Shown here one piece after another: positions 18,560 through 54,810 of a DNA stretch of 64,000 nucleotides. Every line of letters begins with the position of its first letter. The stretch's first letter is position 1. This DNA comes from a virus. Made by a program: the position numbers and the translations under genes. The stretch is from IMG/VR virus record IMGVR_UViG_3300005529_000024, positions 96,001-160,000 of that record. One strand, given 5' to 3'. The notes under the pieces were generated by a model. The model was not told the origin of the DNA and searched no databases. It saw nothing but the letters and a program-made list of their open reading frames with translations.

Positions 18560-18651
18560 AGGCCCTTAGTTTAACGGCAAAATCCTGGACTTATAATCCA
18601 GAAGCTCTAGATTGGAGCGCGATACGGGTTCGAATCCCGTAGGGCCTACCA
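18560..18651 (+). tRNA. tRNA-Ile(UAU) with long variable arm, encoded CCA
   Basis: AGGCCCT/AGGGCCT acceptor; CTGGA-CTTATAA-TCCAG anticodon arm (TAT 18592-18594); 22-nt variable region; ACGGG-TTCGAAT-CCCGT; ends ACCA. Confidence 0.9.
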
Positions 18652-35714: not shown

Positions 35715-35743
35715 TTGACAAATTTATAAGATCCTGCTATACT
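35715..35743 (+). promoter_or_regulatory. sigma70-type promoter for the Y-RNA-like array
   Basis: TTGACA-N17-TATACT with TG extension, 16 nt upstream of unit 1. Confidence 0.85.
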
Positions 35744-35759
35744 ATAAAAAGTTTAAGAT

Positions 35760-35823
35760 TTGGTGGGTCGGAGTCAATGGGTTATCTTGGATAATACCCC
35801 ATGACGAAAAAATTATCCACCAA
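35760..35823 (+). ncRNA. Y-RNA-like unit 1 (minimal)
   Basis: TTGGTGGGT/ATCCACCAA terminal stem; GGGTCG...TTATCC motif; inner stem then TTATC. Confidence 0.72.
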
Positions 35824-35829
35824 TAGGTT

Positions 35830-35904
35830 AGATGGGTCGCTGTTGATGGGTTATCAAACATATTATATTGATTAATCTCCCATTGACGACAAAATTATCC
35901 ATCT
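35830..35904 (+). ncRNA. Y-RNA-like unit 2
   Basis: AGATGGGT/ATCCATCT; GTTGATGGG/CCCATTGAC; same motifs. Confidence 0.72.
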
Positions 35905-35910
35905 TTAAAT

Positions 35911-36039
35911 ATGTGGGTCGATTTTCAGTTGGTTATCGAATTTGAATCGAGAGACATGGGTTCGAATCCCATACGCTAGTTATGCTGGCGTTAGCTTAGT
36001 GGATAGAGCACTTTCCGACTGATACTAACTTATCCACAT
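35911..36039 (+). ncRNA. yrlA: YrlA-like Y RNA with circularly permuted tRNA module
   Basis: ATGTGGGT/ATCCACAT; TCAGTTGG/CCGACTGA; T-arm, loop-closed acceptor stem, then D-arm. Confidence 0.85.
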
Positions 36040-36053
36040 TTAATTTAACAATT

Positions 36054-36119
36054 TAGCGGGTCGCCATTAGTCGATTATCGCCTGGAAAAATATTTCGATT
36101 AATACATACTAATCCGCTA
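36054..36119 (+). ncRNA. Y-RNA-like unit 4
   Basis: TAGCGGGT/ATCCGCTA; ATTAGTCGA/TCGATTAAT; GGGTCG and TTATC motifs. Confidence 0.7.
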
Positions 36120-36236
36120 TTAAAAATCCCTAAGCTCAGTCGCTAAGCGTCTGAGAGGGTCGCCAAGCGTCCCGTCTTAGGTGAGATCCCGCATCCATGA
36201 TAATATCTGCCCATATTGTCTGGATACCACCTCCTC

Positions 36237-36277
36237 AAAATGGCATGATGGCCTATAAAGCTGTCATGCCATTTTTC
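36237..36277 (+). terminator. intrinsic terminator closing the ncRNA operon (possibly bidirectional)
   Basis: AAAATGGCATGATGGC...GCTGTCATGCCATTTTT. Confidence 0.85.
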
Positions 36278-36362
36278 TGTCTTTTTTCCGAAATTCTTAT
36301 AAAAATCTTTATTCTTTACCAATTAATTTACCAAATAAGCTGGTTTTTAGTCTCCTTCTCTA

Positions 36363-36390
36363 TTGACAAAATAAATAATACTGATATAAT
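36363..36390 (+). promoter_or_regulatory. conserved early-type promoter
   Basis: TTGACA AAATAAATAATACTGA TATAAT. Confidence 0.82.
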
Positions 36391-39906: not shown

Positions 39907-40104
39907 ATGAAACGTGCGAGCTATAGAGAGGGTATCGAGATTATTGCTTTAAATGATGAGCCTACAATTTTGGATGTTGAAGAGATGATCGGCTTTCCAT
40001 CTGTTATGCTGCTGGCTGAGTTATTCGGTGTAACTCAGGAGAAAGTTGCCGGAGATATTATCAAGTTTCGGAGGAGACAGTCAGATGATTCTGAAAGAAG
40101 CTGA
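39907..40104 (+). CDS. hypothetical protein
   Basis: AAGGAG upstream. Confidence 0.5.
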   Translation: MKRASYREGIEIIALNDEPTILDVEEMIGFPSVMLLAELFGVTQEKVAGDIIKFRRRQSDDSERS

Positions 40105-40540
40105 GTATTTGGCTTTGGACCTGTTAATTAAACATCAATTAAACATGAAGGGCTGGCGCTTTAAATTTGACCGGGCAAAGAATCGCATGGGTCTATGTCG
40201 ATACGGTCATAAGTGTATCTCCCTTTCCAGAGTCTTAACCTTTAAAGCTTCTGAAAAAGAGGTGGAGGATACATTATTGCATGAAATAGCGCATGCATTA
40301 GTGGGTCCTGGATTCGGTCATGGAAAAGTGTGGAAGCAAATGGCGCGTAAAATTGGCTGTTCTGCTGAAAGATGTCATAACGTTAAAATTACATACAAGT
40401 ATATTCTTCGTTGTGAAAAATGTGGGAAAGTAACAGGTAAGCGTAATAGAAGGAAGAACCTTGTTCATATATCTTGCGGTGGGCGTATTTTGTACTTTCC
40501 TTATATTCCAGACAGTGAAGAAAATGTGTTGACAAAATAA
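40085..40540 (+). CDS. SprT-like zinc metalloprotease
   Basis: MGLC, TLLHEIAHAL, HGKVWK, YILRCEKC. Confidence 0.85.
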   Translation: MILKEAEYLALDLLIKHQLNMKGWRFKFDRAKNRMGLCRYGHKCISLSRVLTFKASEKEVEDTLLHEIAHALVGPGFGHGKVWKQMARKIGCSAERCHNVKITYKYILRCEKCGKVTGKRNRRKNLVHISCGGRILYFPYIPDSEENVLTK

Positions 40541-40556
40541 ACAATGCTGCTATACT
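40529..40556 (+). promoter_or_regulatory. conserved early-type promoter
   Basis: TTGACA AAATAAACAATGCTGC TATACT. Confidence 0.82.
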
Positions 40557-40583
40557 TATAGTTAATTAAATAGGGAGGTTACA

Positions 40584-40910
40584 ATGATCCTGGCAATTGT
40601 CGATAGTCTTAGGTTCAAAGAGAATAAACTCACTCAGACAGTCCATTATTACGAGAACTGTAAAAGGCTTGAGTTTACCTATTTTCTAGAAAGACAAGGC
40701 TCTCTTCCAGCAGTAATAGCAGATACAAAGGAAGAAGCTATCGAAAAGCTGAGGGAAGCTATCAAGAATTATCTATCAACTTGCGTGTGGGGTAAACCAA
40801 ATGCAAAAGATTTCGTGTTCTCTATCAGGTATGATTTTACATTAAAGAATCTTATCAACTTTCCACCTTCCTGCGTATCGCCTGAGATCGAACTCGAACC
40901 TGTTGAATAA
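40584..40910 (+). CDS. hypothetical protein (HicB-like motif possible)
   Basis: LPAVIADTKEEAIEKLREAI. Confidence 0.5.
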   Translation: MILAIVDSLRFKENKLTQTVHYYENCKRLEFTYFLERQGSLPAVIADTKEEAIEKLREAIKNYLSTCVWGKPNAKDFVFSIRYDFTLKNLINFPPSCVSPEIELEPVE

Positions 40911-41299
40911 TGGAGTTAACAAAATTGGACATCTACCTTGACGATACAAGAGAACCTTTGGGAGAAGGTGTTGTATGGGTGACAAATTTTAGACAAGCTG
41001 CACGATTATTGTCTACTGGTAATGTCGAGTCCATATCATTAGATTATGACTTGAGCTACCAACCACTCTGTAGGGTTTGTCTCGTTAAATGTAGCTTTGA
41101 ATGCGATTGTGACTGTCACAGTGAGCCGGGAACTGGTCTTGACGTAGTAGAACACATGATAAAGACTAATATCTGGCCATTAAGAATCTATATCCATTCT
41201 AGCTCCCCAAAAGGTAGGGATCTCATGTTTGATAAGATCCTGTTACACGGACCATATAAAAAACATGATAGATTAAGGATGTATTTCGAATGCCCTTGA
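40910..41299 (+). CDS. cyclic-phosphate-processing receiver-like domain protein
   Basis: YLDDTR, SLDYDL, GTGLDV, IHSSSP.G...M. Confidence 0.75.
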   Translation: MELTKLDIYLDDTREPLGEGVVWVTNFRQAARLLSTGNVESISLDYDLSYQPLCRVCLVKCSFECDCDCHSEPGTGLDVVEHMIKTNIWPLRIYIHSSSPKGRDLMFDKILLHGPYKKHDRLRMYFECP

Positions 41300-45086: not shown

Positions 45087-45107
45087 AAGTGGGTCAATTA
45101 TCTACTT
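45087..45107 (+). promoter_or_regulatory. mini Y-RNA-like hairpin in the Ro60 leader (putative operator)
   Basis: AAGTGGGTC-AA-TTATCTACTT, next to the AAGGAG RBS. Confidence 0.55.
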
Positions 45108-45125: not shown

Positions 45126-46712
45126 ATGGCGAAATACACAAAGCATTTCCAAACGAAGCAGACCAAACAAACTGAACCGATTCCCGGTAAGAACCAGGTG
45201 AAAAATAATGCTGGTGGTTATACGTTCAAGATTACCCCAGAGGCGCAGTTTAAGCGATTCTTGATTCTTGGTAGTGATGGTGGTAGTTATTATCAGACCG
45301 AGAATGACTTGACTGTTGAAAATGCTGAGAATGCAGTTGAGTTTATTAAGCAGGATGGCGTTATGGCAGTAAAGCTTATTGCTGAAATCTCAGATCAGGG
45401 TAGAGCAGCTAAGAATTCACCGGCTATCTTTGCTCTGGCTCTTGTTTGTACATTCGGTAGCCCTGAAGCAAAAGCTTGCGCGTATAAGGCGATTCCTGTT
45501 GTGTGCCGTATCGGTACTCATATCTTTGAGTTTTGCCAGTACATTCAAGATCTTCGTGGGTGGAGCCGTGGGCTTAGAAAGGGTGTTGCTTCTTACTTTG
45601 AGAAAAAGGTTGCTGATTCCAATCTGGCGCTTGACGTTATCAAGTATCGTCAGCGTGATGGTTGGACACATAAGGATGTTCTTCGTTTGTCTCATCCTTC
45701 AATCAGCGGTAATGATGTCAACTCGGTTTTAAAGTGGGCTGTTGGTAAAGAGGTTACAGAGAAAAACGCGCTCATCAGTGCATTTGAACAGATTCAGAAG
45801 ACGACCAATGTTAATGAGGCTGTTAAGCTGATTGAGGAGAATAACCTCCCTCGTGAAGCTGTTCCTACGGATCTGCTTAATTCTGCGGATATCTGGAATG
45901 CTTTGCTTGTTAAAATGCCGATGAAAGCCATGATCCGCAATCTTGGAAAAATGACTTCCATTAACCTTCTTAAGTCTAACTTTGGTGAACAGGAGAAGAG
46001 AGTTATTGCTTCTCTTACTAATGTAGAGGCTTTGAGCAAGGCACGTATCCATCCTCTGGATATCCTTGTTGCTCTTAAGATCTACAGTCAGGGTCATAGT
46101 GAAAGAGGATCTCTCTCATGGCGTCCTGTTCCTGGTATTGTTGAAGCTTTGAATGAGGCTTTCTATCTTTCTTTCAAGAATGTAGCTCCACTTGGTAAGA
46201 ACTTCCTTATCGGACTTGATGTCTCTGGGTCTATGTCTAGCCGTATTTCAGACAGCAATTCATTGACTTCACGTGAAGCAACTTCAGCTATTTCTCTGTT
46301 GCTGGCCCGGACTGAGAAGTCGGCAGAGGTGTTTGCTTTCTCTAACTCGTTCATGCCGTTGACTGTTCACAAGAATCTGAGCCTTGAGGGATTGATGCGT
46401 AAGACAGAAAGTCTCCCATTCCAGGGTACTGATTGTGCTCTTCCAATGTTGCATGCTACCCGTAATAAGATTGACAACATTGATTGTTTCATCGTGTTAA
46501 CCGATAGTGAAACGTGGGCTGGAAATATTCATCCTAGCCAAGCTTTACTTGATTATCGGAGACAGTTTAATCCGGAAGCCAAATTGATTGTTTTGGCAAC
46601 TGTTCCTTCTGCTTTCACGATTGCTGATCCGACCGATGCAGGCTATTTGGATATCGCTGGATTCGATTCAAGCGTGTATTCGGTCATGCAAGAATTCCTG
46701 AAAGGATGGTGA
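45126..46712 (+). CDS. rsr: Ro60/TROVE domain ribonucleoprotein (Rsr ortholog)
   Basis: NNAGGY, RFLILGS.GG.YY, GWSRGLR, KYRQR.GWTHKDVLRLSHP, AMIRNLG, RIHP, vWA DVSGSM, GTDCALPM, TDSETW, GFD. Confidence 0.96.
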   Translation: MAKYTKHFQTKQTKQTEPIPGKNQVKNNAGGYTFKITPEAQFKRFLILGSDGGSYYQTENDLTVENAENAVEFIKQDGVMAVKLIAEISDQGRAAKNSPAIFALALVCTFGSPEAKACAYKAIPVVCRIGTHIFEFCQYIQDLRGWSRGLRKGVASYFEKKVADSNLALDVIKYRQRDGWTHKDVLRLSHPSISGNDVNSVLKWAVGKEVTEKNALISAFEQIQKTTNVNEAVKLIEENNLPREAVPTDLLNSADIWNALLVKMPMKAMIRNLGKMTSINLLKSNFGEQEKRVIASLTNVEALSKARIHPLDILVALKIYSQGHSERGSLSWRPVPGIVEALNEAFYLSFKNVAPLGKNFLIGLDVSGSMSSRISDSNSLTSREATSAISLLLARTEKSAEVFAFSNSFMPLTVHKNLSLEGLMRKTESLPFQGTDCALPMLHATRNKIDNIDCFIVLTDSETWAGNIHPSQALLDYRRQFNPEAKLIVLATVPSAFTIADPTDAGYLDIAGFDSSVYSVMQEFLKGW

Positions 46713-46716
46713 TCAT

Positions 46717-47826
46717 ATGAGCACATTAAAAGTAGAGATCTGTAGAATTGATGGTGTGGAAAAGCATCCTAATGCCGATAGGCTGGATATTGTCAAGATT
46801 GCCGGTTGGCAATGTGTCACACAGAAAGATGCTTTTAAGGTAGGGGATTCCTGCGTCTACATACCGATTGACTCGATATTGCCCCTCGAAGTTGAGAGTA
46901 AGATCTTTGGTCCTGATTCTAAGATTAAGCTTGATAAATCTAGGGTCAGATCAATTAAACTTCGTGGTGCCATTTCACAGGGTATGGCTGTAAGACCATC
47001 TACTCTCGGTATTCCTGATGATCAGGATGTTGGTACAGATGTTTCTGAGATTCTTGGCATTAAGAAATATGAACCGCCTACCAGGGAGGTGTCTCATAAC
47101 AGTCAGCTTAATCCTAAACCAAAGCGAAGCTGTAATCCTAATTTCAAGAAGTATACTGGTATCGAGAACTGGAAATGGTATCCAACACTTTTCGATAGCA
47201 CAGAAGAGGTCGTAGTTACAGAGAAGATTCATGGTACAAACTTCCGCTGTGGCTATATTCCTTACTGTGCAAATACTTGGTGGAAGAAGGTTCTGAAGTT
47301 TCTTCACCTTACACCTCAGTATGAGTTTGTGTATGGTAGCCACAATGTTCAGTTGCAGAATAAACTGCGCTATAAAGGCTACTACAGCAATAACGTGTAT
47401 CTTAAAATCGCTAAGCAATATAACCTTGAGTCTGTTCTGAAGAACTTTCCTGGTTTTGTTGTATACGGGGAAATCTACGGTGATAGGATACAGAAGGGAT
47501 ATAATTACGGGTGTGGTACAGGAGAGCATAAGCTCGTTGTTTTTGATGTCATGCACGATGGCAGTTATCTAGACTTTCCTGTCTTTAGTGTTTTTTGTAA
47601 TTTGAGACGGCTACCTATGGCCCCTGTTGTTTATCATGGCCCGTATGATGGCGATAAGATTCTGTCCCTTACCAAAGGCAATTCTGTTCTCTGTCCTGAG
47701 CAGAGGGTTCGTGAGGGAGTCGTTGTGAAACCATTAAAAGAACAGATAACATTTATGGGTAGAAAGATTTTAAAAGTCATCTCTGATGATTATCTGTTGA
47801 ACAACGATAACACTGACTTTCATTAA
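46717..47826 (+). CDS. ATP-dependent RNA ligase (Rnl2/DRB0094-like) with N-terminal OB domain
   Basis: HPNADRL; LRG..SQG; TEKIHGTN; YGEIYG; VFD; REGVVVK; LKVIS..YL. Confidence 0.92.
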   Translation: MSTLKVEICRIDGVEKHPNADRLDIVKIAGWQCVTQKDAFKVGDSCVYIPIDSILPLEVESKIFGPDSKIKLDKSRVRSIKLRGAISQGMAVRPSTLGIPDDQDVGTDVSEILGIKKYEPPTREVSHNSQLNPKPKRSCNPNFKKYTGIENWKWYPTLFDSTEEVVVTEKIHGTNFRCGYIPYCANTWWKKVLKFLHLTPQYEFVYGSHNVQLQNKLRYKGYYSNNVYLKIAKQYNLESVLKNFPGFVVYGEIYGDRIQKGYNYGCGTGEHKLVVFDVMHDGSYLDFPVFSVFCNLRRLPMAPVVYHGPYDGDKILSLTKGNSVLCPEQRVREGVVVKPLKEQITFMGRKILKVISDDYLLNNDNTDFH

Positions 47827-53534: not shown

Positions 53535-54185
53535 ATGAAACTCGTTGCTCTTTCTGACACTCACAACCAGCATAATAATATAGAGGTCCCGAATGGAGAC
53601 ATACTCGTTCATGCTGGCGATATCAGCTATCAGGGTAGATTCCAAGAGATAGCAGTATTCATAAAATGGTTTGCTGCTCAACCTCATCCTATCAAGATTC
53701 TCGTACCAGGTAATCATGATTTCCTGTTCGAACGTGATATGCCTACCGCGAGAAAACTGTGTGAGGAGAATAAGATTACGCTCTTGGTAAATGAAGGAGC
53801 GACAATTAGAGATCTCTTTGTTTGGGGTAGTCCTGCTGTGCCCTTCTTTATGAATTGGGCTTTTAATTATCAGCGTGGTGAAGATATCAAACGGTTTTGG
53901 AACCTCATCCCTTCTGATATCGATTTACTTATTACTCATGGTCCACCAAAAGGAATCCTTGATGAGATTGATGGACAGGAAGTAGGCTGTTGGGATCTTC
54001 TGGAAGAGGTCCTTAATAGGATTAAACCAAAAGTTCATTTGTTTGGGCATATACATAAAAATGGAGGGCTGTCACTTACAATTGATGGAACGACATTTTA
54101 TAATGTGGCTATTTGTGACGAAACGTATAAAACAACAAATCCAGTAACTGTGATTGATATAGGGAGAGAAAAACATGGTGCGTAA
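53535..54185 (+). CDS. metallophosphoesterase (MPPED/239FB-like)
   Basis: SDTH, HAGD, PGNHD, THGPP, FGHIH. Confidence 0.9.
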   Translation: MKLVALSDTHNQHNNIEVPNGDILVHAGDISYQGRFQEIAVFIKWFAAQPHPIKILVPGNHDFLFERDMPTARKLCEENKITLLVNEGATIRDLFVWGSPAVPFFMNWAFNYQRGEDIKRFWNLIPSDIDLLITHGPPKGILDEIDGQEVGCWDLLEEVLNRIKPKVHLFGHIHKNGGLSLTIDGTTFYNVAICDETYKTTNPVTVIDIGREKHGA

Positions 54186-54810
54186 TGTTGAAGGGTTAAA
54201 ATTTTTCTTAAAGAATACGATCTTTGATGTGGTTCTTTATGATACGGATGATCATAAGAAATATGCTGTCGCTGGTGGTGCTGTACGCGATTACCTGTCT
54301 AACAATCCGATTAAAGACATCGATATTTTCTGTGAAGATATTGAGGCAGAAGAATATATCCTGGATAGGCTTCAATCGTTAGCTGATTTCGGTCATCCAG
54401 ATATCGTCTACGTAAACCATAATGATTTCCTTTCTAACTATCGTATTGGGGAATATGCTGTTCAGATTATCCGGAACAAGTATTTCCCGCTTACTAATGA
54501 TCCTAGTTTTCTAATTGAAGCATTTGACTTCACCATTTGTGGCGGTATGGTTCGTTTCGATGGTGAAGCATTCTTCCTTCCTACATTCTTCCAAGACTGT
54601 CTCGCAAAACATCTTCGCATTCAAGTTATTACCTTCCCCTTGTCAACACTCGAACGTATGCAAAAATATATTCAACGAGGTTACACAGCATGCAATGGTA
54701 CTCTCCTGAGTATTGCAAAGAGTCTTCAAGGCTTGGATTACGATAATCCAGATGTCAACACTCTTGTCTTTTATCCGGATGGTACGCCTAGATTTTTCTC
54801 ATACGATTAA
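54175..54810 (+). CDS. CCA-adding/poly(A) polymerase head-like nucleotidyltransferase
   Basis: AGGAVRD...KDIDIF; FDFTIC; R..KY..RGY. Confidence 0.78.
   Translation: MVRNVEGLKFFLKNTIFDVVLYDTDDHKKYAVAGGAVRDYLSNNPIKDIDIFCEDIEAEEYILDRLQSLADFGHPDIVYVNHNDFLSNYRIGEYAVQIIRNKYFPLTNDPSFLIEAFDFTICGGMVRFDGEAFFLPTFFQDCLAKHLRIQVITFPLSTLERMQKYIQRGYTACNGTLLSIAKSLQGLDYDNPDVNTLVFYPDGTPRFFSYD

What the first reader, a model, noticed from the sequence alone, without database searches (positions are those of the whole stretch)
35715..36119. Phage-encoded tandem array of four Y-RNA-like ncRNAs paired with a phage Ro60
Seen: behind its own sigma70 promoter lie four back-to-back hairpin units (35760-35823, 35830-35904, 35911-36039, 36054-36119). 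They share a terminal stem carrying GGGTCG on the 5' side and TTATCC (TAATCC in unit 4) on the 3' side, an A-rich internal loop, an 8-9 bp inner stem and a second TTATC. Stem sequences differ between units but keep complementarity, which indicates selection on RNA structure. The apical parts are completely variable. Known: bacterial Ro60 (Rsr) binds Y RNAs through a conserved terminal stem, the rest of the RNA is an effector module, and Y RNA genes usually sit next to rsr. Inference: this phage makes a set of constant-scaffold, variable-module RNAs loaded onto its own Ro60 (45126-46712), which is encoded 9 kb away. This would be a modular Ro60 RNP system with more RNA partners than usually described.
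Basis: partly seen in the sequence, partly recalled or inferred. Interest (0 to 1): 0.92.

Follow-up and report, generated by a model that had tools for sequence, protein, structure and literature searches.

The report
Phage operon of four Y RNAs
An uncultured soil phage carries a small operon of four Y RNAs, the partner RNAs of the ring protein Ro60 that it also encodes; phage Ro60 with Y RNAs is known, but this RNA scaffold in rows of 2 to at least 10 beside phage Ro60 genes is in no paper I could find.

Summary
Four back-to-back structured units lie at 35759-36121, between a near-consensus promoter and a strong terminator, in non-coding DNA. A covariance model built only from 28 units of other phages finds exactly these four in the 64-kb window (E 1e-10 to 2e-6).

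All units share a closing helix (GGGUCG with UUAUCC), an 8-9 bp covarying upper stem, an invariant (G)GUUAUC and a variable top. Unit 3 carries a permuted tRNA-like module, as YrlA RNAs do.

The phage encodes a canonical Ro60 (TROVE plus vWA; E about 1e-116 to frog and other Ro60 structures), followed by an Rnl5-type RNA ligase.

In public viral contigs the same RNA family forms rows of 2 to at least 10 units within 2.8 kb of a TROVE gene, on the same strand. All 17 records with two or more units encode TROVE. The 9 records without TROVE hold one unit each.

Four RNAs is ordinary for this class, not exceptional. The unusual feature here is that the operon sits 9 kb from Ro60.

Ro60 binding and expression are untested. 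This scan has noted comparable arrays on other phage DNA before. I rate it a new variant of a known kind.

The parts
35715..35743 (+). Sigma-70-type promoter-like site (TTGACA, 17 nt, TATACT, with TG extension). The predicted start is about 35750, roughly 9 nt before unit 1.
   Evidence: 11 of 12 consensus positions
35759..35824 (+). Y RNA unit 1, short class, 66 nt. Lower stem 35760-35768 with 35815-35823. Upper stem 35773-35781 with 35798-35805, with one bulged A. UUAUC pairs with GAUAA in a small apical hairpin.
   Evidence: model R1 54.7 bits, E 1.1e-10
35828..35906 (+). Y RNA unit 2, short class, 79 nt. It has an 8-bp lower stem, a 9-bp upper stem and an AU-rich apical stem-loop.
   Evidence: R1 51.1 bits, E 7.8e-10
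35909..36041 (+). Y RNA unit 3, long YrlA-like class, 133 nt. It has the same handle and upper stem (35925-35932 with 36015-36022). These enclose a permuted tRNA-like module: T-arm 35956-35972 with a UUCGAAU loop, acceptor-like stem-loop 35974-35990, and D-arm 35994-36009.
   Evidence: R1 42.3 bits, E 8.8e-8, with a 69-nt insertion at the apex. Rfam YrlA RF02553 gives 29.2 bits (below the gathering score of 69) but aligns full length with high posterior through the three arms. Base positions come from my reading.
36052..36121 (+). Y RNA unit 4, short class, 70 nt. It is the most divergent unit: GAUUAUC instead of GGUUAUC, and UAAUCC instead of UUAUCC.
   Evidence: R1 36.8 bits, E 1.6e-6
36129..36225 (+). 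Strongly structured 3' tail of the same predicted transcript: a branched element at 36129-36181 that holds another GGGUCG, then a hairpin at 36193-36225. It does not match the Y RNA model and its role is unknown.
   Evidence: fold of 36120-36290, which also holds the terminator hairpin: z = -6.3, 0 of 200 shuffles as stable; not reported by R1
36237..36285 (+). Intrinsic terminator: a 16-bp hairpin followed by a T-rich run. It closes a transcription unit of about 530 nt.
45088..45106 (+). Short hairpin in the Ro60 leader that repeats the closing part of the Y RNA handle (GUGGGUC, short loop, UAUCUAC), just upstream of the ribosome-binding site. It may be a Ro60 autoregulatory site.
45126..46712 (+). 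Phage Ro60 (Rsr) gene, 528 aa, with TROVE and Ro60-type vWA domains.
   Evidence: PF05731 5e-44, PF25045 4e-55; 1yvp and 9nen E about 1e-116, Deinococcus Rsr 2nvo 2e-106, each over nearly the full length
46717..47826 (+). ATP-dependent RNA ligase with an N-terminal OB domain (Naegleria Rnl5-like). It starts 4 nt after Ro60 and is probably co-transcribed with it.
   Evidence: PF09414 5e-23, PF21189 5e-21; Naegleria gruberi RNA ligase 5cot, 6.5e-12
40910..41299 (+). Context gene between the array and Ro60: a cyclic-phosphate-processing receiver (cREC) domain protein. The family's name links it to cyclic-phosphate processing.
   Evidence: PF20274, 1.5e-19

Best explanation
The stretch is a self-contained operon of four Y RNA genes, the non-coding partner RNAs of the phage's own Ro60. 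One host-type promoter probably drives a transcript of about 530 nt that ends at the terminator at 36237-36285. Host RNases probably cut it in the 3-10 nt AU-rich spacers. Each released RNA is a hairpin whose paired 5' and 3' ends form a constant handle: GGGU paired with AUCC, then a probably bulged C, then G-U and A-U pairs. This geometry matches the Ro60-binding helix of animal Y RNAs and nematode sbRNAs. Above the handle sit a sequence-variable but always paired upper stem and an invariant (G)GUUAUC. Ro60 most likely docks on the handle. The variable tops then act as different adaptor modules: three short stem-loops, and one tRNA-like module in unit 3. They would tether Ro60 to different host or phage partners, such as PNPase or tRNA-binding enzymes, or gate access to its central hole. 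Together with the RNA ligase fused to the Ro60 operon, the system most likely serves RNA quality control or repair during infection. Shown here: the four units, their covarying structure, their membership of a TROVE-linked phage RNA family, and the canonical Ro60. Inferred: transcription, processing, Ro60 binding and the partners recruited.
For: (1) A model built only from other phages' units finds all four units and nothing else significant in 64 kb. (2) Across 72 distinct units, 90.7% of cells pair against 46% or less when partners are slid. All 16 pairs show changes on both sides, and 0 of 500 shuffles reach the observed values. (3) The link with Ro60 is strong. 18 of 27 structured pattern hits lie in TROVE-bearing records against 1 of 21 unstructured hits. 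Units lie on the same strand as TROVE and within 2.8 kb in all 18 other TROVE records. All 17 records with two or more units encode TROVE. For comparison, only 373 of 50,697 cultured phage records match Ro60. (4) Unit 3 aligns to Rfam YrlA through the T-arm, stem-loop and D-arm. Long units in other arrays score 35-46 bits against YrlA, and most carry a T-loop motif. (5) The short units resemble nematode sbRNAs, which are Y RNA homologues. RF01656 scores 30.8 bits in the window, and 40.2 and 38.4 bits (gathering score 38) in two relatives. The aligned handle, GGGUUAUC and 3' strand show this. (6) The window's Ro60 is canonical. (7) There is published precedent: Rsr binds YrlA and YrlB, which are processed from one precursor (PMC4201824), and phage phiLo Ro60 binds two phage-encoded Y-like RNAs and host PNPase (PMC12135203).
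Against: There is no expression or binding data, and no RNA run holding the stretch was listed. The array lies 9.0 kb from Ro60, outside the 4-kb rule used to call YrlA genes (PMC4201824), whereas every relative found has them within 2.8 kb. Window units score below the Rfam gathering thresholds for both YrlA and the sbRNA family. Unit 4 departs from two otherwise near-invariant motifs. Nine records hold a single unit but no TROVE gene; CheckV estimates three of them (G013, G014, G033) as 100% complete, and G014, G030 and G033 have terminal repeats, so the scaffold is not strictly dependent on a phage-encoded Ro60. The structured set was chosen partly by stem complementarity, and the large alignment is fitted to the model, which inflates the pairing statistics somewhat.
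Confidence: 0.85

Rival explanations
1. The RNAs act mainly on the host's Ro60 (Rsr). As decoys or sponges they would titrate or redirect the host's Rsr-PNPase machinery, rather than serve as cofactors of the phage protein.
For: Nine viral records carry one unit of the family and no detectable TROVE gene; three are estimated 100% complete (G013, G014, G033) and G014, G030 and G033 have terminal repeats. The handle can therefore be useful without a phage Ro60. In the window the array is transcriptionally separate from Ro60 and lies behind an early-type host promoter.
Against: Every multi-unit array found lies in a record with its own TROVE gene, nearly always adjacent to it and on the same strand. 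The window's Ro60 leader carries a miniature copy of the same handle, which points to recognition by the phage protein. The host and whether it has Rsr are unknown.
Confidence: 0.08
2. The units are Ro60-independent structured RNAs of the phage tRNA world, for example processing substrates or mimics aimed at tRNA enzymes. On this view their co-occurrence with TROVE reflects only shared residence in tRNA-rich regions of large phages.
For: In relatives, tRNA genes are interleaved with or abut the units: L045 tRNA-Ser, L065 tRNA-Leu, L059 tRNA-Ser, L027 tRNA-Met. Ro60 genes of cultured phages often sit in tRNA clusters. Long units contain tRNA-like parts.
Against: The constant part is not tRNA-like. 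It reproduces the Ro60-binding helix of Y and sbRNAs. Distances to TROVE are typically 85-300 nt, far tighter than shared neighbourhood would give. The window's array has no tRNA beside it.
Confidence: 0.05
3. The units are chance hairpins or recently duplicated repeat DNA without function.
For: Single-unit folding z-scores are only -1.8 to -3.5.
Against: Independent model E-values are 1e-10 to 2e-6. The units are only about 52% identical, with identity confined to motif positions and compensatory changes in the stems. The family is conserved in dozens of unrelated viral contigs.
Confidence: 0.01

Closest known systems
Thermus phage phiLo Ro60 with Yrl1 and Yrl2 (PMC12135203)
   Same: A phage encodes its own Ro60 and more than one Y-like RNA. 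In phiLo the RNAs bind the phage protein and, together with it, host PNPase. This is the nearest experimentally supported model for what the window's system does.
   Different: phiLo has two RNAs directly upstream of the gene, recognised through a CGAA motif. Its Ro60 is very divergent from the window's (9kop E 6e-5 against 1e-116 for frog Ro60). The window has four RNAs in a separate operon 9 kb away, with a GGGUCG / GGUUAUC / UUAUCC scaffold.
Bacterial Rsr with YrlA/YrlB (Salmonella, Mycobacterium smegmatis) and Deinococcus Yrn1/Yrn2 (PMC4201824; Rfam RF02553)
   Same: There is at least one tRNA-like Y RNA plus shorter hairpin Y RNAs per genome. The RNAs are processed from a common precursor in M. 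smegmatis. A GNCGAA-type motif lies near the 5' end, and the phage family consensus reads GUCGAAG. The genes are linked with RNA repair genes (rtcBA in Salmonella, an Rnl5-type ligase here).
   Different: Unit 3 reaches only 29 of the 69 bits needed for RF02553. The invariant GGUUAUC and UUAUCC are not part of the YrlA consensus shown by Rfam. The array is four units, and up to at least ten in relatives, instead of two. It lies beyond the 4-kb neighbourhood criterion.
Animal Y RNAs and nematode stem-bulge RNAs (Rfam RF01656 ceN72-3_ceN74-2)
   Same: The layout is the same: a terminal helix with a bulged C followed by G-U, a short internal loop, an upper stem ending in GGGUUAUC, and a 3' strand ending in CAACUU-N2-CCG. 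Two relatives pass the family's gathering score. The window's Ro60 is as close to vertebrate Ro60 as to bacterial Rsr.
   Different: The window units score below threshold (30.8 bits for a chimeric match across units 1 and 2, 17.2 bits for unit 1 alone). Two pairs of the handle are swapped relative to sbRNAs. The genes are bacterial-type, with a sigma-70 promoter and an intrinsic terminator, and they are polycistronic. Whether the likeness is common descent or convergence on the same Ro60 surface is open.

Membership tests
Y RNA (Ro60-associated non-coding RNA) | Bound and stabilised by Ro60 | not testable with these tools
   No binding or expression data. No RNA sequencing run holding the stretch was listed.
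Y RNA (Ro60-associated non-coding RNA) | The 5' and 3' ends pair into a terminal helix that carries a conserved Ro60-binding motif (GGUCCGA-like) | tested here: met
   GGGUCG is 94-100% conserved and pairs with AUCC. The alignments to the sbRNA model place it on the GGUCCG helix. All four window units have it.
Y RNA (Ro60-associated non-coding RNA) | A Ro60 gene in the same genome, usually adjacent and on the same strand | tested here: met
   TROVE plus vWA gene at 45126-46712 on the same strand, although 9.0 kb away. In 18 other records the units are within 2.8 kb of TROVE and on the same strand.
YrlA (Rfam RF02553) | Score at or above the curated gathering threshold (69 bits) | tested here: not met
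   Unit 3 scores 29.2 bits, E 3.7e-4 in 751 nt. Long units of relatives score 35-46 bits.
YrlA (Rfam RF02553) | Permuted tRNA-like domain (T-arm, then a closed acceptor-like stem-loop, then D-arm) inside a closing stem | tested here: met
   Unit 3 only. The full-length alignment has high posterior through all three arms. The T-loop reads UUCGAAU and the D-loop AGUGGAUA.
YrlA (Rfam RF02553) | GNCGAA(N0-1)G motif near the 5' end (PMC4201824) | tested here: inconclusive
   The family consensus GUCGAAG fits (A 56%, A 61%, G 50% after the invariant CG). The window units read GUCGGAG, GUCGCUG, GUCGAUU and GUCGCCA, each with one or two departures.
YrlA (Rfam RF02553) | Encoded within 4 kb of Ro60 on the same strand (search criterion of PMC4201824) | tested here: not met
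   Same strand, but 9.0 kb separate unit 4 (which ends at 36121) from the Ro60 start at 45126.
Nematode sbRNA / animal Y RNA (Rfam RF01656) | Score at or above the gathering threshold (38 bits) | tested here: not met
   Window: 30.8 bits (chimeric, units 1 and 2) and 17.2 bits (unit 1 alone). Relatives L072 and L059 reach 40.2 and 38.4 bits. Rfam Y_RNA itself gave no match at E up to 10.
Nematode sbRNA / animal Y RNA (Rfam RF01656) | UUAUC motif directly after the upper stem | tested here: met
   UUAUC is 92-100% conserved at that place in 72 units and is present in all four window units.
Ro60 / TROVE protein | TROVE domain plus C-terminal Ro60-type vWA domain, full length | tested here: met
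   PF05731 151.6 bits and PF25045 186.7 bits. Residues 13-524 align to chains 9nen, 1yvp and 2nvo.

The most novel reading that the evidence does not exclude
Large phages carry a so far undescribed, widespread Y RNA family whose Ro60-binding handle and GGUUAUC box are homologous to those of animal Y RNAs and nematode sbRNAs. Phages expand it into arrays of 4 to at least 10 plug-in adaptor RNAs, some with tRNA mimics. Each RNA would send one Ro60 ring to a different host target, such as PNPase, tRNA enzymes or damaged RNAs, giving a programmable RNA-surveillance or counter-defence toolkit. The window's unlinked, separately promoted operon would then allow the RNAs to be made early and in excess over the protein.
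Probability: 0.3. Interest if true: 0.8.

Novelty: new variant of a known kind. Interest (0 to 1): 0.62.

Why it matters
What Y RNAs do beyond tethering Ro60 to PNPase is still an open question, in bacteria and in animals. A phage family that keeps one constant handle and swaps the tops, in arrays of up to ten or more, is a natural experiment on that adaptor function. Each module can be tested for its partner. The handle's close likeness to the animal Ro60-binding helix would make phage Ro60 particles a simple bacterial model for the autoantigen particle. The association with RNA ligases also suggests a role in the phage-host contest over RNA damage.

Tried and rejected
- A blastn search of the array against 50,697 cultured phage records found no match.
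- Rfam at gathering thresholds reported only the tRNA-Ile at 18560, so the units are in no curated family at threshold.
- Sequencing-run search: no RNA holder was listed. The only holder is a soil metagenome DNA run that may be the source of the contig. Expression could therefore not be examined.
- A simple motif search in the one Ro60 relative first fetched (L002) found nothing. The covariance model later found one unit there, 2 kb upstream of Ro60.
- I tried to learn whether bacteria carry the same scaffold next to rsr, without result. The genome-collection scan with Ro60 returned only one 3.3-kb low-coverage contig of a Nitrospirae MAG with no model match. It was the only TROVE hit among 301 genomes of that phylum, so it is probably binned viral DNA. 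The bacterial question stays open.
- Two review articles on bacterial Y RNAs were not held.
- I considered and rejected three other readings. Degenerate tRNA genes: ARAGORN finds none in the array. Terminator or attenuator hairpins for the downstream genes: a terminator and a fresh consensus promoter follow the array. Recent DNA duplication: the units are about 52% identical, with identity confined to the motifs.

Full report
**What is there.** The window is bases 96001-160000 of a 174-kb IMG/VR virus record. Its portal protein is T4-type but only about 30% identical to that of any cultured phage. The only sequencing run that holds the stretch is a soil metagenome.

Between the last small ORF (ends 35689) and the next (starts 36424) lies about 730 nt without any ORF of 50 aa or more over the units. 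It opens with a promoter-like site, TTGACA-17-TATACT with a TG extension, at 35715-35743. It closes with a 16-bp hairpin plus T run at 36237-36285. A perfect consensus promoter at 36363-36390 then restarts transcription for the downstream genes.

**The four units.** Each unit starts with 4-5 variable bases followed by GGGUCG. It ends with UUAUCC (UAAUCC in unit 4) followed by the complement of those variable bases. This gives 8-9 bp lower stems whose outer halves differ between the units while staying paired.

Two to four bases after GGGUCG comes an 8-9 bp upper stem, different in each unit and again complementary. It is followed at once by UUAUC. A 7-nt A-rich linker joins the 3' strand of the upper stem to UUAUCC.

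GGGTCG followed by TTATC occurs four times in 64 kb, only here, against 0.24 expected. Spacers between units are 3-10 nt.

**Independent test.** I scanned IMG/VR for the exact motif GGGTCG, 9-13 nt, GGTTATC, 15-45 nt, TTATCC, and found 53 stretches.

The hits split cleanly. In one group the flanks continue the lower stem and an upper stem exists. In the other group there is no complementarity at all. I aligned 28 structured, non-redundant units from other phages and built covariance model R1 without any window sequence.

R1 finds exactly the four window units, at 54.7, 51.1, 42.3 and 36.8 bits (E 1e-10 to 2e-6). This includes unit 3 with its 69-nt apical insertion, and unit 4, which the motif scan could not have matched. 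Nothing else in the window reaches E 0.5, and no further unit was found in the whole 174-kb record.

**Structure is under selection.** R1 matches in the window and 30 other loci gave 85 units, 72 of them distinct.
- 90.7% of cells form standard pairs, against 35-46% when the 3' partners are slid.
- All 16 pairs show changes on both sides.
- No shuffle out of 500 reaches the observed values.

Two caveats apply. The alignment is fitted to the model, and the seed set was chosen partly by complementarity. The invariant positions are GGGUCG, GG-UUAUC and UU-AUCC (92-100%).

**Link with Ro60.** The ORF at 45126-46712 is a full TROVE plus Ro60-vWA protein. It aligns end to end with Ro60 chains 9nen and 1yvp (Xenopus Ro60) at E about 1e-116, and with Deinococcus Rsr at 2e-106. 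It is much closer to these than to the divergent Ro60 of Thermus phage phiLo (6e-5).
- Of the 48 viral records behind the motif hits, 19 encode TROVE: 18 of the 27 with structured units, and 1 of the 21 with unstructured chance hits (Fisher p = 1.4e-5).
- The background among cultured phages is 373 of 50,697 records.
- In every other TROVE record the units lie on the TROVE strand and within 2.8 kb, usually 85-300 nt from the gene.
- All 17 records with two or more units encode TROVE. The nine TROVE-less records hold exactly one unit each. CheckV estimates three of them as 100% complete, and three have terminal repeats.

**Array sizes and unit classes.** Related arrays hold at least 10 (L045), 6 (L084), 5 (L065, L063), 4 (L067, L069, L013, L058) or 2-3 units. 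Four is therefore typical for this class.

Unit lengths are bimodal: 63-95 nt and 116-138 nt. Fourteen of the 20 long units carry a T-loop motif. Units and neighbouring stretches of these arrays score 35-46 bits against Rfam YrlA, and some hold a near-complete tRNA.

Unit 3 (133 nt) belongs to the long class. Rfam YrlA aligns it at full length through the T-arm, a closed stem-loop and the D-arm. The arms read as a tRNA opened at the anticodon loop, with the acceptor stem closed by a short loop. The Y RNA upper stem takes the place of the anticodon stem. This is the YrlA design of Chen et al. (PMC4201824).

tRNA genes are interleaved with some arrays. This suggests processing by tRNA-maturing enzymes. 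The window's array has no tRNA in it.

**Likeness to animal Y RNAs.** The best Rfam match of the short units is RF01656, a nematode sRNA family (ceN72-3_ceN74-2). From my own knowledge these are stem-bulge RNAs, the nematode homologues of Y RNAs. It scores 30.8 bits in the window, and 40.2 and 38.4 bits (gathering score 38) in two relatives.

The alignments put the phage CGGGUCG on the sbRNA CGGUCCG, GGGUUAUC on GGGUUAUC, and CAACUUAUCCG on CAACUUGACCG. Read as a helix, both give five pairs, a bulged C, then a G-U pair. Two pairs are exchanged in a compensatory way. That last step is my inference from those alignments and from the published Xenopus Ro60-Y RNA structure, in which Ro60 reads the 5' strand GGUCCGA (as cited in PMC4201824).

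**How it most likely works.** A single early transcript would be cut into four RNAs. Each would dock on Ro60 by the handle. The tops would act as adaptors or gates.

The precedents are direct. In Deinococcus and Salmonella the Y RNA tethers Rsr to PNPase, and M. smegmatis YrlA and YrlB come from one precursor (PMC4201824). Phage phiLo Ro60 binds two phage Y-like RNAs and forms a ternary complex with host PNPase (PMC12135203).

In the window, Ro60 is followed after 4 nt by an Rnl5-type RNA ligase. A cyclic-phosphate-processing receiver domain protein lies between the array and Ro60. Together these point to an RNA quality-control or repair role during infection, with possible feedback on Ro60 synthesis. 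None of this is shown experimentally.

**What is new and what is not.** Phage-encoded Ro60 with Y RNAs is established: 22 phages in PMC4201824, and phiLo in PMC12135203. Several Y RNAs per genome is also established.

I did not find the following in the papers I could search or in Rfam:
- this scaffold family;
- its expansion into long arrays;
- its near-identity of layout with animal Y and sbRNAs.

No record I fetched annotates such RNAs. This includes Streptomyces phage Beuffert, which has three weak matches among its tRNAs. Notes from this scan describe comparable arrays beside Ro60-like genes on other phage DNA, with a different handle. The theme therefore recurs within the project.

The window's own peculiarity is that the array is a free-standing operon 9 kb from Ro60.

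Noticed in passing
window 36129-36225: The tail of the predicted Y RNA transcript is very strongly structured (z = -6.3 for the fold of 36120-36290, which also holds the terminator hairpin). It forms a branched element with two near-identical small hairpins and another GGGUCG, then a long hairpin, just before the terminator. It is not a member of the Y RNA model and I did not look for it in relatives.
   Followed up: partly
G013, G014, G033 (loci L016:8476-8542, L017:5358-5438, L038:461-538): Three viral genomes estimated 100% complete (two of them with terminal repeats) carry a single, high-scoring unit of the same Y RNA family but no detectable TROVE gene. These may be orphan Y RNAs that use the host's Rsr.
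   Followed up: partly
L045:774-3071 (record G039): This is the largest array seen: at least 10 model matches plus two further YrlA-like matches in 2.3 kb. A tRNA-Ser is interleaved, and the array ends 94 nt before a TROVE gene.
   Followed up: partly
L002:9798-9919: Directly upstream of the Ro60 gene of a 143-kb tRNA-rich phage, after an HNH-like ORF, lies a 122-nt element with a 7-bp acceptor stem and a T-arm but a long insertion. Rfam tmRNA scores 27.7 bits, below threshold. It may be a tRNA-like Y RNA or a tRNA with an insertion.
   Followed up: no
window 40046-41299 and 53535-54810: Other genes nearby may handle RNA or nucleic-acid ends: SprT-like (40046-40540), cREC receiver domain (40910-41299), a metallophosphoesterase (53535-54185) and a nucleotidyltransferase-like ORF that overlaps it (54175-54810; weak PolyA_pol head match, PHROG nucleotidyltransferase).
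   Followed up: partly
L089:388-465, 542-610, 1540-1607 (Streptomyces phage Beuffert, MT952852.1): Three unannotated weak matches to the Y RNA model lie among the tRNA genes, 1.3-2.5 kb upstream of the annotated Ro-like protein. None of the five cultured phage records I fetched annotates a Y RNA.
   Followed up: partly
L091 (Nitrospirae MAG contig JAKAHZ010000200.1): A 3.3-kb contig at coverage about 0.9 encodes a Ro60 that is 44% identical to the window's. It is the only TROVE hit among 301 genomes of the phylum, so it is probably viral DNA binned into the MAG.
   Followed up: partly
window 36363-36390: A perfect consensus promoter (TTGACA, 16 nt, TATAAT, with TG) lies immediately after the Y RNA terminator. 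It heads the run of small ORFs that separates the array from Ro60.
   Followed up: no
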